Assembly (NCBI RefSeq): GCF_963921235.1
Contig: NC_086107.1
Location: forward strand, 94,800,001 to 94,864,000
Source: Mobula hypostoma
Taxonomy: Eukaryota
DNA: 64,000 nt
Direction of reading: 5' to 3'
Shown here piece after piece: positions 18,901 to 30,900 of the stretch; position 1 is the stretch's first letter, and each line of letters starts with the position of its first letter. Position numbers and translations under genes: made by a program. Below the pieces are notes generated by a model. The model saw only the letters and a program-made list of their open reading frames with translations, was not told the origin of the DNA and ran no database searches.

Positions 18901-21900
18901 CGGCCTGAAACGTCGACTGTGCCTCTTCCTATAGATGCTGCTTGGCCTGCTGCGTTCACCAGCAACTTTGATGTGTGTTGTTCCAATAACCCTTCAATTT
19001 CTTTACGACAGAGAACAGGAAGCCACGTGACCACACACATAACCAGACCCCCCGGCCAGCAGAGCCTCTACCTCAGGGACTGCTGGGGCCGATGCCAAGG
19101 TTTCTTCGAGCACACCCTCACGTAGTCCTTCTTGTTCACGTTCTCCAGGAACTTCACGTAGAGACGCTGGTACTCATTCTTGGCGTGACCAAAGTACCCG
19201 AGATACTGAAAGAGAAGGCGAGACCCACTGTCAGGCCTCCCGATACCTGCTGCACTTTGGAAGGACAAACCAGGGTAGGATTTACACAGCGACTGGTAAA
19301 GCACTGAGGGGCGCAGTGGAACAGAGGGATCTGGGAATACAGATCCATAACTCCTTGGAAGTGGCATCACAGATAGATAGGGTGGTAAAGAGAGTTCTTG
19401 GCGCATTATAGAATCACAGCCATGGAGACTACAGCACAGAAACAAGCCCTTCGGCCCATCTAGTCCCTGTTGTTTTTCACCCTAGTCTCGTCTCACCACC
19501 CACTTCTGGACCATACCCCTCCACTCCATGTACTTATGCAGACTTCTCTTAAATGTTGCAATCAAGCCCACACCACCACTTCCGCTGGTCGCTCGTTCCA
19601 CACTCACACCACCCTCCGAGTGAAGTCGTTCCCCTTAAATATTTCACCTTTCACCCTTAGCCTATGACCTCTAGTTCAAGCTTAGGGGTCCTCAACTTCT
19701 TTTTATGCCATGGACCCCAAGTTGTGAACCCCTGTTCTAGTCTCACCCAATCTCAGTGGGGAAAGCTGCTTGCATTTATCTAGTCTATACCTCTCATACT
19801 TTTGCATACCTCCATCAAATCTCGTCTCATTCTCCTGCACTCCAGGGAATAAAGATCGTAAGACGCATCTTAATGCATTTCCACAAGTCCTACATAACCC
19901 AGTGCACCAAAAGGGGGACGAGGACTGTCCAAGAGTAGGGAGATCTCTGGAGGTCCCTATCTTCCCTGAAACCTCAGAGAAGGCATTGAGGAGGGAGGAT
20001 GGGTGGAACACAGGAGCAGGAGGAACATTATAACTTTGAGACTTGCCCTGATGATCAGAATTCTGGCCCCACATTCCCACTGCTACATTGATTGGTTGAA
20101 GGGATCGGTTAAACGCAGGGAAGAACAAAAAATCCAAATAATGGGTATGGGTGCTCTCACAAGAGTTCCATGGCCAACATTCACCCCTCCCCCACCAACC
20201 CAGTCAACATTACTATAGGATCATGGCAAATCTTCCTGATGGGATCTTCCTGTGCAGAGACCGCCACGTGTCGTCCAACACTGCGGTGACCCGACTCTGC
20301 GGGGTTTCATTGGCTCGGTAGCCTCCAGAACATTCCAGATGCTTCGCCCAGACACCCACCCCACCCTCCCCCACCTTACCTTGCTAGTTGCGCAGAACTG
20401 CCGCTGCCCGTCGCGGATCTCGGGGGTGAACTTCTGCAGCAGGGCCTTCTGCACGCGCCAGACGGGAGGGGGCTCGCGCCCTGCCTGCATCGCCAGCTGT
20501 GTGGACAACAAACTGTTAGCCTGGCGTCAACTCCTAGTACCCGGAGGGGCTGCTGAGAGAAATGGACACAGCTCTGGTGTCGCGGAAACCAGCCTCCTCT
20601 CCGTTAACCGCTGCCTCGCAAAAGCAAGCTGACATAATCAAAGACCCCCCTCCCATACCGGTCATTCACTCTTCTCCCCATGGTATACCCTCAGCTAGAT
20701 GCATTGTCTGGTTACAGGGGCAAGATTGAGTGAGGGTCAGGGATGTGTTCGGTCACATGACATGGGATGGGTTGTGGGGGTGGGGGGGGAACAGGTGATA
20801 GGTATCAGCGGCGAGGCGGACAATAACCTCTGGTCAAGATGGCGCCTGCATACAACACGCCCTCAGACGACGTCTTCCGGATAGACCACAAAACTATTTA
20901 CTCCATGCCTTTCACGTCTGTTTTTCATCTAGAATGCGTTTCTGGACCCGTCGGAACCTGCGACTTGCAGTTCGGGGATCGTTTGGGTGACCCAGTGCTT
21001 TGCTCTCTCCGGGAGGCAGCCAGCGCAAGCCTCGAGGCGAGGCGTGAGCCGACGTTCGACTCCATTTCGCCAATTTAAGTGACGAGGGAGATTGAGACAT
21101 CGAGGCGAATGTGGAGGGTGAGCGCTGCCTGCCTGCCTTCTGATTGCTGGTGGGATCGTCTGCTGCCGCAGAGGAGAAGCCTGTCTGGCCTGTCGCTGTG
21201 AATGTTACCATGGTTTTCTGTATTTATGGATATGGATTTGGACTGTGGTCTTATAGTTTTCAATATTCTGTTAGTTTTGGTTACTTTTTTTGTCCGGGGA
21301 GAGGGAGCAATGTTCTTGTTGTGTTTTGTGCGGGGGAGGAGTTTTGGGAGTTGGTGATCGTGTTGCTATTCTTTTTTGCATGCGGGGTGGGGGTGCTGCT
21401 TCTCTCTGAACTGACTTCCATGATTTTTCTTGGTTTTGTGGCTATCTGGAGAAGACGAATCTCAGAGTTGTAACCTGCATGAACCTTTGACCTTCCCCAC
21501 AGCACTGTGTCATCCAGTGTGAACAATTACAGCAGACCTCCACCTGTCCATTCACTCTGCCCACCAGCAGCTGGTAGCAGTGTGTGTCCAACCCAGAAAA
21601 ATGTACTGCAGTTATCCCCCTGCACCTCCCAAACTCACGGCCTCAAGCACCAAGGTCAAAGGCAGCTGATACGAGGGAACGGGCCCAAAGCCGTACCCGG
21701 CCCCTTTCTTCAGTGTTCCTTCACGGGCCCTGCCTCCAAATCCTAGAACTCGCTCTGTAGGAGCACCCTGGGGCACACCCCGTGGACTGCAACAGAGCAT
21801 GATAGTAGCTCACCCCCACCCACTCGACGGTCATTGGGTGTGGCTGATAAACAGTGCATTGGCCGGCTTCGCTACACCCCAGGCGGAGACTAGAGGAATC

Positions 21901-27900: not shown

Positions 27901-30900
27901 CCTCTCTCATTATGGGCAATGTGAGATCGCTAGGTAATAAAATGGACGAGTTGACGGTGCTAGCCAGGAGTCAGAGAACATTTCGGGAGAGCAATGTTAT
28001 GCGTTTTACTGAAACGTGGCTGCATGAGGACATACCCGACCAAAACGTTTCCATGGAGGGCTTCCAGACCGTTCGAGCTGACCAGAATTGCACTGAGAGT
28101 GATAAGCATAAAGGAGGGGGGCTTGCTGTTCTAGTTAACAACAGATGGTGCAATCCTGGTCATATTACAATCAAGGAACGTGTTTGTAGCCTGGATATTG
28201 AACTTTTTGCTGTTGGGCTCCAGCCATATTCCACCGAGATGCAACACTGGGTGTCATGGGAGGTTGTTCCTGCCTGTGGCCATCGAACTTTGCAGCTCCT
28301 CCCGTGGAGGGTCAGACACCCTGAGCCAATAGGCTGGTCCTGGACTTATTTCCATCTGGTATAGTTTGCATATTGTTGTTTGATTGTTTGTGGTTTTGTA
28401 TTGCTATATGTATGCTCTATTCTTGGTTGGTGCAGCTGTAACGAAACCCAATTTCCCTCGGGATTAATAAAGTATGTCTATCTATCTATCTATCTATCTA
28501 TCTATTTCCAGCATCTACAGCTCCACCTGCATCACCGTGACATCACCAGGTGGTTGCCAGGAGATGCGGCAACACGGGAAAACTTCTCTCATTTTGGGGT
28601 TGGGAGTCCAGCACGTGCAGTATTTTCAAAACCCAGCAACAATTTGCTTAAAGAGCAACAAATCATACCTTCAGCTCCTTAATGTCATCGATTTTAACGA
28701 CAAATTCGTCCCACTTCCGAATGGCTCCCTCCCCTCCACTCTCTTCGTCATCTTCGTCTGTCTCTCCACAGATGGCCACCGAGTCTTGTGGCTTGGCGAG
28801 CTTGACCGGGGATGGAGCCTCCCTCTCCTCCGGCTGTGGTGGGGACTCGGGGGCCGGTGAAGCTTCCTCCTCGGGGACTGGTTCCTTAGGCAAGTCTGGG
28901 GATGGAGGTGCGGCCTGCTCTGGCTGAGAGACTTCTGACGGTGAACTGCTCGTTTCTTTATCCTCCGTGGTAATGTTCTCTGGCAAAGCAAGGAAACAGA
29001 AATGGGAAATGAAGGCCTGCTCTCCCCTTTAAGCTTTTATAACGATTGGCCTTTATTTGTCACGTGTACATTGAAACATTCAAGCACACAGTGAATGTTT
29101 CACTTGCGTCAAAGATCAACACAGTCCAAGGATTGTGCTGGGGACAGCCTATAGGTCTCAACATGCTTAGGACATCAACATAGCACGCCCACAGCTCACT
29201 AACCCTAACCAATATGTCTTTAGAATGTAGGAGGAAACCGGAGCACTTGGAAGAAACCCACGCAATCACGGACAGAATGTACCAACTCCCACACACAGAA
29301 GTGGGAATTGAACCCAATTTCCAGCGCTGCTAAGTGACTGGTCACTCCTGCTGAAGAAATCCTTCCCCTTCTCCATCCTAAATGGGCGATCCCTCATCTG
29401 GAATTTAGCGCCCTTGTCCAAGAAGACCTGGCAAAGGGTGAAACACCCCCTCACCCCCGTGAAGCTCCCTCAGAGCCTTGTACATTTGAATAGGATCACC
29501 TCCCAACCCTCTGAACACTGACAAGGATGAGCCCAGCTCACTCAAGAGTCCCTCGTTCCAGGGGTTTACCACTTGCCCTATCAAATGGTTCACCACTCAA
29601 CTGAGCCAACAGCTAGGGAGTTCTGCATTGGTGAAGTATCGCATCTCCACAGGACACACAGTGGGATCCCTTTCCACTATCAAAGGTGGATGTGAAAGAT
29701 CCCACAGCTTTCAATTTCAAGGGCTGATGTCCTGGACAATAGTTACCCTCAACTCAATATTACCAAGAAATATCTAATAGTGCCTGTGAACAAAGTGGCT
29801 GCCTTGTTCTCAACATTACAACAATGACTTCATTTGGTGAGAAGTGCAACACCCTGAAAAGGGTTGCAAAGGTACCACACAAATGCATGCGATTGAGAAG
29901 CCAGAAGTTGGCCATTTGCCCCCCCAACCCCTCCGCCGCCAAGCCTGCTCCTCCATTTAAAGTCACTTTCACCTCAGCTCCATTTCCCACCCAATTCCCA
30001 AAACTCTCAGCTGAAAGGAATGATTACCTGTGTTGTCAGTTTCCTTGCGATCCATTGGGTCGTAGAGTGCCGAGATGGCGGATGTGATGCTCTTCTGTAG
30101 GTCCTGGTTCTTGCTGACGGAATCTTCCTCATCCGAGGAAAACGATGGCAAGGTCTCCAGATTCTTCTTCAGATCCTCGTCGAACCTCTTGCAGGGGCTG
30201 GTGCAGCTCATGAGGCTGTCGCTTTCCGAGGCGTCGAGTGGGCCTGACAGCATCGACTGCGCCAGGCCAAATGGGGCCTGTGTGGGCTGGTTGATGACTG
30301 AAGATGGCCGCCCTTTCTGGGGGCTGGACGTTGTCGCGGGCAACTGCTGCCTCTTGCCTGACTTCAGGAAGTCCAGGAACGATGCCATGAAGCCGGATTT
30401 CATCTCCGGCTGTTTCTCCTCCACCTCCTTTATTTTTTTCTTGATCTTCTCTTGGGTTTGACTATTCTCCAGCACATTTTCTGTCGGTAGAGTCTCTGGA
30501 ACGTCCACAGGTAAAAGGTCGCTTGCTTTCGACCCTTGAACCTTGCCCTTGGGGGGGGGGAGGAAGGAATAACACACAAACATGACCATCTGTCTCTCAC
30601 CAACGTGACAACCAATATGAAAAACGATAAGATCTTAACTGACGAGCACAAGAAGTCTCTCCATCAGGTGAGACATCAAAAAAAGGCTGCACCAACTTGC
30701 CCCAGAGCAGAGATGGCTTAAGTACACCCCCTTTCTCCCCAATGCTCCAAATGAGCGTGGTTGCCCCACCAGAGGAAGGACGTGGAGACTTTGGAGAGGG
30801 TACAGATGAGGTTTACCATGCTTCTGCTTAGAGGCACGCACCATGAGGAGAGGTTGGACAACCTTTTTTCTGCAAAGGCGAAGGCTGAGGGGAGCCCGTC

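What the first reader, a model, noticed from the sequence alone, without database searches (positions are those of the whole stretch)
19072..28810. PRR12 carries an in-frame tandem duplication of its conserved 125-aa module
Seen: the module [[20 protein letters not shown]...KIDDIK.LK | .AMQ.G.EPPP.WRVQKA.LQ.F.PE | Y..Y....[26 protein letters not shown]] occurs twice in a row. Copy 1 is the 3' end of exon 28669-28979, exon 23434-23550 and the 5' part of exon 22673-22930. Copy 2 is the 3' part of exon 22673-22930, exon 20380-20496 and exon 19072-19205. By hand count the copies are 85/125 aa identical (34/46, 23/39, 28/40), with no indels, stops or broken splice sites. The corresponding introns show no similarity that I can detect, which points to an old, retained duplication rather than an assembly artefact. 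Recalled knowledge: human PRR12 and its paralog QSER1 have one copy, and copy 2 resembles it more closely ([27 protein letters not shown]). Inference: a lineage-specific two-domain PRR12 in which the upstream copy has diverged asymmetrically. The repeat also marks out the boundaries of an otherwise poorly annotated folded domain in a chromatin-associated protein.
Basis: partly seen in the sequence, partly recalled or inferred. Interest (0 to 1): 0.85.

Follow-up and report, generated by a model that had tools for sequence, protein, structure and literature searches.

The report
Ancient domain doubling in ray PRR12
The chromatin-associated gene PRR12 of this devil ray carries two in-frame copies of a small folded domain, a doubling found in every shark, ray and chimaera examined but in no bony vertebrate, which makes it real and old but only a modest evolutionary curiosity.

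Summary
Five minus-strand exons with canonical splice sites encode two adjacent 125-residue copies, 85/125 identical and without gaps. The window's large exon is 100% identical to a public PRR12-like model of Mobula hypostoma.

The doubling is not peculiar to this genome:
- Nine of nine chondrichthyan PRR12 models that span the region have both copies, including the chimaera Callorhinchus. Two partial shark models also carry the junction.
- Every bony-vertebrate PRR12, every QSER1 and the invertebrate relatives examined have one copy.

Spliced contigs in four public runs (two organisms, two studies) carry both copies.

The module is not Pfam DUF4211, which lies about 75 residues downstream. 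It is the unannotated, mostly beta domain that precedes DUF4211 (PMC13172546).

A tree puts the two copies together at 99/99, which favours an origin on the chondrichthyan stem. An AU test does not reject an older origin (p 0.154).

The downstream copy stayed ancestral. The upstream copy changed 12 of 45 family-wide conserved positions, lost 5-7 net positive charges, and then froze.

Function is unknown and no known fold could be assigned. I found no paper describing the doubling. Interest is moderate to low.

The parts
28669..28979 (-). Exon A. It encodes proline/glutamate-rich linker, then copy 1 residues 1-46 (28806-28669).
   Evidence: Translation; splice sites; laid in full by spliced contigs of runs X1, X2, X5 and X6 (table 8).
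23434..23550 (-). Exon B, 117 nt. It encodes copy 1 residues 47-85.
   Evidence: Translation; AG/GT sites. The spliced contigs hold 115 unlisted letters between the pieces on exons A and C; the piece on A runs 2 nt past the exon end, so together this equals the 117 nt of this exon (inferred from length).
22673..22930 (-). Fused junction exon C. It encodes copy 1 residues 86-125 (22930-22811) followed directly by copy 2 residues 1-46 (22810-22673).
   Evidence: Translation; splice sites. Used as a query it is covered 100% only by two shark proteins. Laid in full by spliced contigs in 4 of 4 runs.
22808..22816 (-). Duplication junction, codons Arg-Pro|Leu (..[11 protein letters not shown]..).
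   Evidence: Four of six bony-vertebrate PRR12 proteins printed have R-P-L at both the start and the end of their single module, so the join lies in a possible three-codon microhomology. This is inference.
20380..20496 (-). Exon D, 117 nt. It encodes copy 2 residues 47-85.
   Evidence: Translation; AG/GT sites. The spliced contigs of X5 and X6 have 117 unlisted letters between the pieces on exons C and E (inferred from length).
19072..19205 (-). Exon E. It encodes copy 2 residues 86-125 (19205-19086), then the start of the basic linker.
   Evidence: Translation; sequence and splice sites; laid by spliced contigs of X5 and X6.
35097..38606 (-). Large PRR12 exon: disordered Q/S/P-rich region with the AT-hook-like GRPRIRP and [10 protein letters not shown] stretches. 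Context only, not part of the repeat.
   Evidence: ORF. 100% identity to P0072, named by NCBI as proline-rich protein 12-like of Mobula hypostoma.
30028..30551 (-). Exon immediately upstream of exon A. Context only.
   Evidence: tblastn of P0072. Joined to exon A in the spliced contigs of all four runs.
5383..14086 (-). Exons 14086-13961, 9641-9510 and 5553-5383, which encode the Pfam DUF4211 match (P0072 residues 1861-1974). This is a separate domain downstream of the repeat.
   Evidence: Pfam; tblastn mapping. Predicted as a mainly helical domain with three strands.

Best explanation
The window holds most of the PRR12 gene of a devil ray. Long ago a stretch of genomic DNA was duplicated in tandem. 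It ran from inside one coding exon, through two introns and a 117-nt exon, to inside the next coding exon.

Both breakpoints fell in codons for flexible linker on either side of a small folded domain, possibly at a shared Arg-Pro-Leu microhomology. The product therefore stayed in frame. It is one fused exon and a protein with two consecutive 125-residue units. Each unit is an acidic, disordered leader of about 30 residues followed by a core of one strand, one helix and six strands.

The event predates the split of chimaeras from sharks and rays. It most likely happened on the cartilaginous-fish stem, after separation from bony vertebrates.

The downstream unit, next to the linker and DUF4211 domain, kept the ancestral sequence under very tight constraint and presumably keeps the ancestral job of this domain. 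The upstream unit went through an early burst of change. It replaced a quarter of the positions that are otherwise conserved from nematodes to humans, including the Y-L-G-Y-F-G-x-A-K motif, and lost most of the core's net positive charge. It has been conserved in its new form ever since. That pattern fits a retained, specialised second binding module rather than a decaying spare.

Shown: the duplication, its distribution, its presence in spliced contigs, the asymmetry, the later conservation, and the confident prediction of the same fold for both units.
Inferred: the stem timing, the microhomology mechanism, and any binding function.
For: Structure of the repeat:
- 85/125 identity, same intron positions and phases, one fused exon.

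Distribution:
- 9 of 9 chondrichthyan PRR12 models that span the region have two units: Mobula, Pristis, Narcine, Heterodontus, Mustelus, Heptranchias, Rhincodon, Chiloscyllium and Callorhinchus.
- Partial models of Scyliorhinus and Pristiophorus also carry the junction.
- 63 of 65 proteins have one unit. In one search, 48 of 92 proteins have one unit, 9 have two and 35 lack the region.
- 0 of 32 further representatives of at least 400 aa have two units.
- Amphioxus, mite, scorpion and nematode relatives have at most one module region.

Transcripts:
- Single contigs of 2.6-6.4 kb in runs X1 and X2 (0 differences) and X5 and X6 (a close relative) lie on the exons with contiguous record coordinates and no introns.

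Timing:
- c1+c2 form a clade at 99/99. c1 is monophyletic at 100/100 on a stem of 0.29 changes per column. c2 tips are 0-0.016.

Asymmetry and later constraint:
- c1-unique 21-32 against c2-unique 1-5 changes, p <= 0.0025 in each of 9 species.
- Mean pairwise identity is 88.7% for c1 and 96.7% for c2.
- Chimaera against elasmobranchs: c1 80-85%, c2 93-97%.
- dN/dS between the copies is about 0.19.
- Of 45 positions at least 90% conserved family-wide, c1 keeps 32 and replaces 12 in all nine species. Eight of the 12 replacements are themselves fixed.
- Core net charge is +2 to +4 in c1, against +9 in c2 and +7 to +12 in bony PRR12 and QSER1.

Fold:
- Both units are predicted with the same order of secondary-structure elements, with 10-residue block pLDDT about 77-91 for c1 and about 84-94 for c2.
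- This matches the 'domain of unknown function, mostly beta-strands' described for human QSER1 (PMC13172546, passages).
Against: - The AU test does not reject the alternative tree in which c2 groups with bony-vertebrate PRR12 and c1 branches earlier (lnL difference 7.34, p 0.154).
- The bootstrap had not settled (correlation 0.980).
- The alignment has only 125 columns, and early gene conversion could mimic a c1+c2 clade.
- No lamprey or hagfish PRR12 was identified among the hits.
- The runs' library type is not on record. The tool guesses RNA and marks X5 'probably DNA'.
- The pieces on the two 117-nt exons were not listed and are inferred from exact lengths.
- No biochemical function is known for the module.
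- No solved structure matched convincingly: Foldseek found nothing at E <= 0.001, and the best VIA Z was 3.5.
- Whether the two units touch is open. pTM was 0.51 and the complex predictor was unavailable.
- All comparative proteins are predicted gene models.
Confidence: 0.85

Rival explanations
1. The duplication is older, in the jawed-vertebrate ancestor or earlier in the PRR12 lineage. Bony vertebrates then secondarily lost the upstream unit by a precise in-frame deletion.
For: The AU test does not reject the tree that puts c2 with bony PRR12 and c1 outside (p 0.154). c2 is 80-87% identical to bony PRR12 but only 68-75% identical to c1 of the same species.
Against: - The best tree joins c1 and c2 at 99/99.
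- This rival needs two events, a gain and an exact loss, instead of one.
- QSER1 of sharks, rays, chimaera and tetrapods has one unit, and the amphioxus, mite, scorpion and nematode relatives show at most one module region.
- c1 is closer to c2 (68-75%) than to coelacanth or human PRR12 (59-70%).
Confidence: 0.1
2. Copy 1 is a tolerated but functionless spacer, a slowly decaying extra unit. It might also be removed from most transcripts by exon skipping.
For: - c1 evolves several times faster than c2.
- c1 has lost 12 of 45 family-wide conserved positions.
- No function is known for either copy.
Against: - c1 has no stop, frameshift or indel in nine species that span the chimaera-elasmobranch split.
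- c1 is 80-99% identical among those species.
- Eight of its 12 replacements at conserved positions are fixed in all nine.
- dN/dS between the copies is about 0.19.
- The four listed differences inside the modules between the window and the related organism in X5 and X6 are all synonymous.
- c1 is predicted to fold like c2, with block pLDDT about 77-91.
- The long contig laid across this region in each of the four runs includes it.
Confidence: 0.04
3. The arrangement is an assembly or gene-model artefact, for example collapsed or expanded haplotypes or a mis-joined scaffold.
For: None found. Two public models around this region are defective: Rhinoraja is truncated inside c1, and Pristiophorus departs from c2 after about 47 residues. 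That shows annotation is error-prone here.
Against: - The copies are only 73.6% identical in DNA and have unrelated introns.
- The same architecture, with the same copy-specific residues, recurs in 11 independently assembled species.
- Spliced contigs from two studies carry both copies.
Confidence: 0.01

Closest known systems
PRR12 of bony vertebrates (e.g. human PRR12, UniProt Q9ULL5 as cited in PMC11050278)
   Same: - It is the orthologous gene: a large disordered N-terminal exon, AT-hook-like stretches, the same conserved module (human residues 1546-1670), a basic linker, and a C-terminal DUF4211 (human 1840-1944).
- c2 is 80-84% identical to the human module.
   Different: - It has one module, not two.
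- It has no counterpart of c1 with its fixed substitutions (K31, W32, S65, S82, S83, E88, V93, I116) and its lowered positive charge.
QSER1 (paralogue), first folded C-terminal domain 'of unknown function'
   Same: - It has a homologous module, 68-75% identical to c2, at the same place before a disordered linker of about 90 residues and the DUF4211 region.
- The module is described from AlphaFold models as mostly beta-strands (PMC13172546, passages). This agrees with my models.
   Different: - It is single-copy in every species seen, including the shark, ray and chimaera QSER1.
- That paper labels the second domain bMERB. I did not test that label.
Invertebrate module-plus-DUF4211 proteins (amphioxus PRR12-like, mite 'QSER1', scorpion 'CCDC82-like', nematode DUF4211 protein)
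   Same: A recognisable single module (about 29-33% identical over 60-109 residues) lies upstream of a DUF4211 match. The pairing of the two domains is therefore old.
   Different: The proteins are much shorter, similarity is weak, and they carry one copy only. The names are those given by the sources.
Intragenic tandem duplication of exons giving repeated domains (a general, well-known route of protein evolution; from general knowledge)
   Same: The copies are collinear head to tail, share intron positions and phases, and keep the reading frame.
   Different: - Both breakpoints lie inside exons rather than introns, which produces a fused exon.
- There has been a single round only.
- The product has been fixed for the whole history of a vertebrate class.
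BAH and SH3/Tudor-like beta-barrel chromatin readers
   Same: About 10 of the 45 weak structural matches are BAH domains of chromatin proteins (MET1, DNMT1, ORC1b, TNRC18, ZMET2, PBRM1, ASH1L, ASI1, DIM2, MTA1). Several others are SH3 domains. PRR12 and QSER1 are chromatin-associated according to the papers read.
   Different: - All Z scores are 2.0-3.5, with rmsd 2.5-5.8 Å over 43-80 residues. The tool itself treats this range as a common arrangement.
- Foldseek gives nothing at E <= 0.001.
- There is no sequence match to Pfam or to the PDB.

Membership tests
PRR12 orthologue | Full-length sequence similarity to PRR12, stronger than to QSER1 | tested here: met
   - The large exon is 100% identical to the Mobula hypostoma PRR12-like model.
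- It is 65-80% identical to other chondrichthyan PRR12 and 43% to human PRR12 (E 1e-129).
- QSER1 hits are weaker: shark QSER1 E 5.7e-143 against chimaera PRR12 E 0.
- The modules group with PRR12 and apart from QSER1 at 100/99.
PRR12 orthologue | C-terminal DUF4211 (PF13926) | tested here: met
   P0072 residues 1861-1974, E 2.6e-15, 57.2 bits against a cut-off of 27. The match maps to window exons 14086-5383.
PRR12 orthologue | AT-hook DNA-binding motifs | tested here: inconclusive
   [11 protein letters not shown] and [12 protein letters not shown] stretches are visible in P0072 and in the window ORF. The motif definition is recalled, and no profile for it was run.
Pfam DUF4211 (as the identity of the duplicated module) | The module is matched by the PF13926 profile | tested here: not met
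   - The only PF13926 stretch in P0072 is 1861-1974. The modules are 1538-1787.
- The exon translations, and the module regions of the module-bearing proteins scanned at E up to 10, get no Pfam family; the only family matched in those proteins is DUF4211, downstream of the module.
In-frame tandem exon/domain duplication | Head-to-tail collinear copies with the same intron positions and phases and an open frame | tested here: met
   Both copies are split 46|39|40 codons, the introns are phase 0, and the splice sites are canonical. The junction exon is covered in full by homologues in other chondrichthyans.
In-frame tandem exon/domain duplication | Both copies present in the mature transcript | tested here: met
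   Contigs in 4 of 4 laid runs place exons A and C (and E in X5 and X6) at contiguous record coordinates. The gaps equal the two 117-nt exons. The library type is not on record, so this rests on the intron-less form itself.
BAH domain | Structural superposition on solved BAH domains with a clear score | tested here: inconclusive
   Best Z is 3.5 (MET1 BAH, rmsd 3.9 Å, 74 residues aligned). Other BAH rows have Z 2.0-3.1. The model searched held two units, which may lower the scores.
Tudor/SH3-like barrel | Structural or profile match to Tudor or SH3 families | tested here: inconclusive
   SH3 rows have Z 2.0-2.2. There is no Pfam match at E up to 10. The lead came from an earlier scan note on a viral Tudor-Tudor-DUF4211 protein.

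The most novel reading that the evidence does not exclude
The module is a previously unclassified chromatin- or nucleic-acid-binding beta domain: a basic core behind an acidic leader, paired with DUF4211 since before the split of protostomes and chordates. In cartilaginous fishes its duplication created a two-headed cassette. The remodelled, much less basic upstream head recognises a different ligand from the ancestral head, which would give chondrichthyan PRR12 a bivalent reading mode that no bony vertebrate has.
Probability: 0.15. Interest if true: 0.55.

Novelty: new variant of a known kind. Interest (0 to 1): 0.33.

Why it matters
PRR12 haploinsufficiency causes a human neuro-ocular syndrome, and its paralogue QSER1 guards developmental promoters against DNA methylation (as stated in PMC11050278 and PMC12648955, passages read). 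In those two papers the only annotated domain, apart from PRR12's AT-hooks, is DUF4211.

The doubling is a natural experiment on the other folded domain:
- It marks the smallest unit that evolution could copy and keep, namely an acidic leader plus a beta core.
- It gives a paired comparison of an 'ancestral' and a 'remodelled' version in one protein. The comparison points to the Y-L-G-Y-F-G-x-A-K segment, the residues just before the first strand, and the basic surface as likely functional sites.
- It is a clean molecular character shared by the chimaera, sharks and rays examined.

It does not open a new kind of biology. Domain duplication is commonplace, and the two-copy proteins are already in public predicted proteomes.

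Tried and rejected
- Whole-genome search of the window's own assembly: no genome is held.
- Pfam on single exons and on module-bearing proteins at E up to 10: nothing for the module.
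- Profile search of the PDB sequences with alignment A1: 0 matches at E <= 1.
- Foldseek against the PDB with both models: no match at E <= 0.001. The top rows (small heat-shock protein, sliding clamps, PilZ proteins) have TM about 0.1.
- VIA-align second look at Foldseek's top 1000: best Z 2.6, protease half-barrels.
- VIA-align wide search: best Z 3.5.
- ESM Atlas by features for copy 2 of the catshark protein: no usable hit, and no model is held.
- Sequencing-run search: no RNA holder is listed, and the library types are not on record. The joints table was dominated by repeat-element joins, so I used the table of contig pieces instead.
- Complex prediction for copy 1 against copy 2: not run. 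Whether the two units pack together stays open.
- Earlier notes of this scan for this place: none.
- Paper search 'PRR12' with five cartilaginous-fish terms at min_terms 2 was badly posed. It returned 5,554 papers, and none of the 10 listed holds PRR12.
- dN/dS per copy across species: not possible, because only proteins of the other species were available, not coding DNA.

Full report
**What is in the sequence**

The first is read from 28977. Joined in a script, they give an open frame in which residues 58-182 and 183-307 are two 125-residue units, 85/125 identical and with no gap.

Each unit is split 46|39|40 codons by two phase-0 introns at the same positions. All five exons have AG acceptors behind pyrimidine tracts and GT donors. 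The middle exon (22673-22930) is a fusion: the last 40 codons of copy 1 (c1) run straight into the first 46 codons of copy 2 (c2).

At DNA level the copies are 276/375 identical, with dN 0.204, dS about 1.07 (near saturation) and a ratio of about 0.19. The introns share nothing collinear except two repeat-element pieces and one weak 75-nt match.

**Whose gene it is**

The 1247-codon ORF at 35055-38795 is 100% identical over 94% of its length to a public protein that NCBI names proline-rich protein 12-like isoform X2 of Mobula hypostoma (P0072). That protein maps exon by exon onto the window from 43704 down to 3868 on the minus strand. The two units are its residues 1538-1662 and 1663-1787.

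**The module is not DUF4211**

Pfam matches P0072 only at 1861-1974 (PF13926, E 2.6e-15), which is about 75 residues downstream of c2. The same holds for chimaera, human and coelacanth PRR12 and for ray QSER1. Neither the exons nor module-bearing fragments match any Pfam family, even at E up to 10. A PDB sequence search with a 56-sequence profile finds nothing.

**Distribution**

- The junction exon used as a query (65 hits among 112 candidates) was covered 100% by only two proteins, both from sharks (Scyliorhinus torazame and Pristiophorus japonicus).
- Local BLAST of both units against those 65 proteins found two module regions in these two and one region in the other 63.
- The large exon used as a query (158 hits, 120 listed) brought in the chondrichthyan PRR12 models.
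- Of the 92 new proteins, 9 have two full units, 48 have one and 35 lack the region because they are truncated models.
- The nine are all the chondrichthyan PRR12 models that reach the region: Mobula, Pristis, Narcine, Heterodontus, Mustelus, Heptranchias, Rhincodon, Chiloscyllium and the chimaera Callorhinchus.
- The Rhinoraja model is marked low quality, stops inside c1 and is uninformative.
- Every bony-vertebrate PRR12 seen has one unit (coelacanth, lungfish, bichir, teleosts, reptiles, birds, mammals). So does every QSER1, including those of Narcine, Heptranchias and Callorhinchus.
- A search of 1.84 billion cluster representatives with the catshark fragment gave 283 hits. Among the 137 newly returned proteins, 32 are at least 400 aa long, and none of these has two units.
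- The weakest module-bearing hits are named by their sources as amphioxus PRR12-like, mite QSER1, scorpion CCDC82-like and a nematode DUF4211 protein. None shows more than one module region; DUF4211 downstream was confirmed for the two of them scanned, amphioxus and scorpion.

**Transcripts**

The run search listed no holder recorded as RNA. I laid four runs: X1 and X2 from one organism with no differences from the window, and X5 and X6 from a close relative, covering two studies.

Each run holds one long contig (6413, 2598, 4266 and 3757 letters) that lies on 30028-30551, 28667-28979 and 22673-22930, and in X5 and X6 also on 19071-19205. The record coordinates are contiguous and carry no intron (table 8). 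The unlisted record letters between these pieces number 115 and 117. These equal the two 117-nt exons, because the first piece over-runs its exon by 2 nt. That equality is an inference from length, since those pieces were not printed.

These contigs have depths of 36-84, whereas contigs lying only in introns have depths of 2-12. The simplest reading is mature mRNA with both units. From contigs of unrecorded library type, a processed DNA copy cannot be formally excluded.

**When it happened**

I built a maximum-likelihood tree of 44 modules. It used 9 c1, 9 c2, 17 bony PRR12 and 9 QSER1 sequences, taken from 35 of the 106 proteins with a near-full-length module. They were picked by hand for taxonomic spread before the tree was seen, and 71 mostly redundant proteins were left out.

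- QSER1 separates at 100/99.
- c1 and c2 of chondrichthyans join at 99/99 on a branch of 0.15.
- c1 is monophyletic at 100/100 on a stem of 0.29.
- c2 tips are 0-0.016.
- The bootstrap had not fully settled (correlation 0.980).

The alternative tree, with c2 and bony PRR12 together and c1 outside, is 7.34 log-likelihood units worse but is not rejected (p-AU 0.154). The event certainly predates the chimaera-elasmobranch split, which I recall as roughly 380-420 million years ago. Its placement on the chondrichthyan stem is favoured by the tree and by parsimony, given single units in QSER1 and the invertebrate relatives, but it is not proven.

**How it happened (inference)**

c2 begins L-H-L-A-K-K-Q exactly as the single module of bony vertebrates does. 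In four of the six bony PRR12 proteins printed, that module is both preceded by R-P and followed, after W-H-R-P, by L. The chondrichthyan junction reads [11 protein letters not shown] in 9 of 9 species.

The data fit a genomic tandem duplication whose two breakpoints lay inside exons, within a three-codon R-P-L microhomology. Retroposition is excluded because both introns were copied.

**Asymmetric fate**

- With coelacanth or bichir PRR12 as reference, c1 carries 21-32 unique changes and c2 carries 1-5, in each of nine species (binomial p <= 0.0025; the species are not independent).
- Among chondrichthyans, c1 averages 88.7% identity (minimum 80.0) and c2 averages 96.7% (minimum 92.8). Chimaera against elasmobranchs is 80-85% for c1 and 93-97% for c2.
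- Of 45 module positions at least 90% conserved across the 56-sequence family alignment, c1 keeps 32 in all nine species and replaces 12 in all nine: E31K, R32W, L65S, K68Q/R, A82S, T83S, L87I/V, G88E, F90P/G, G91D/E, A93V, V116I. Eight of the replacements are themselves invariant.
- The replacements cluster just before the first strand and in the otherwise near-invariant Y-L-G-Y-F-G-x-A-K segment.
- The net charge of the core (residues 31-125) is +9 in c2, +7 to +11 in bony PRR12 and +7 to +12 in QSER1, but only +2 to +4 in c1. The 30-residue leader is acidic (-4 to -7) in all of them.
- The four listed differences inside the modules between the window and the relative in X5 and X6 are synonymous. 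That table was truncated.

The pattern is an early burst of change followed by long constraint. It is not decay.

**Structure**

AlphaFold2 was run on the last 539 residues with a 56-row alignment (mean pLDDT 77.5, pTM 0.43) and on the two units alone (254 residues, mean pLDDT 80.2, pTM 0.51).

- Both units show the same order of elements: a low-confidence acidic leader, one strand, a 13-residue helix, three long strands, a short helix and three more strands.
- Block pLDDT is about 77-91 for c1 and 84-94 for c2.
- A disordered basic linker follows, then a mainly helical DUF4211 region.
- The modest pTM leaves the mutual orientation of the units open.

This agrees with the published AlphaFold description of human QSER1: disordered to residue 1319, then a domain of unknown function made mostly of beta-strands, a 90-residue linker, and a helical domain at 1535-1735 (PMC13172546, passages read).

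No solved structure matches convincingly. The best is Z 3.5. About 10 of the 45 weak rows are BAH domains of chromatin proteins and several are SH3 domains. This is a lead, not an assignment. An earlier scan note on a giant-virus Tudor-Tudor-DUF4211 protein points the same way, and I could not test it beyond this.

**Literature**

- PRR12/QSER1/DUF4211: 4 papers.
- PRR12 + chondrichthyan: 0 papers.
- PRR12 + shark: 4 papers.
- QSER1 + DNA methylation valleys: 64 papers.
- One further search was badly posed.

In passages of PMC11050278 and PMC12648955, the only domains discussed are DUF4211, the AT-hooks and low-complexity regions. 'Shark' and 'cartilaginous' do not occur in the first of these. 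PMC3554528 uses Prr12 only as a synteny marker. I found no description of the duplication. Subscription journals and supplements were not searched.

**Verdict**

This is a real, expressed and ancient duplication of the unannotated beta domain of PRR12, found in every cartilaginous fish examined, with a conserved ancestral copy and a remodelled but constrained second copy. It is a new architectural variant of a known protein, already present but apparently unremarked in public predicted proteomes. It is useful as a pointer to functional surfaces of a poorly understood disease-gene domain and as a phylogenetic character, and is otherwise an ordinary kind of event.

Noticed in passing
window 17513-18987: Two nested inverted-repeat pairs (280 nt at 97% and 248 nt at 99% complementary) flank an ORF at 18045-18563. 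The ORF has a GIY-YIG match just under Pfam's cut-off (E 3.4e-4, 21.3 against 22.6 bits). It looks like a remnant of a Penelope-like retroelement in the intron just downstream of exon 19072-19205.
   Followed up: partly
window 60600-63155: A tandem array of a 32-nt unit (also read as 63 nt) has about 80 copies at 93% matches. It is open in three plus-strand frames for up to 930 codons, which is purely a consequence of the repeat.
   Followed up: no
window 15861-17013 and 14658-15384: These are intronic tandem arrays: 33 nt x about 37 copies, and 52 nt x 5.5-6.8 copies. The first gives long open frames on the plus strand that are not evidence of a gene.
   Followed up: no
window 39112-39342 (+), also 32028-33016 (-): A Sleeping Beauty/Tc1-type transposase HTH match (PF25787, E 5.2e-12) lies in the intron upstream of the large PRR12 exon. 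Tc1-like ORF fragments in another intron were not confirmed by Pfam.
   Followed up: partly
window 6122-6473: A 70-nt unit is repeated 5 times at 95% matches, inside the intron region between the DUF4211-coding exons.
   Followed up: no
P0008 (Pristiophorus) residues 1667-1731; P0075 (Rhinoraja) end; P0007/P0082 (Scyliorhinus): Public gene models around the duplicated exons are often defective. One departs from copy 2 after about 47 residues, one stops inside copy 1, and one gene is split into two models. The repeat may confuse automatic annotation.
   Followed up: partly
human QSER1 (literature), compare Suncus QSER1 module 1318-1441 in P0068: A reported in-frame QSER1 patient variant, p.(Glu1393del) of 'a highly conserved residue' (PMC12648955, passage), may fall inside the QSER1 counterpart of the duplicated module. 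I did not check human numbering.
   Followed up: no
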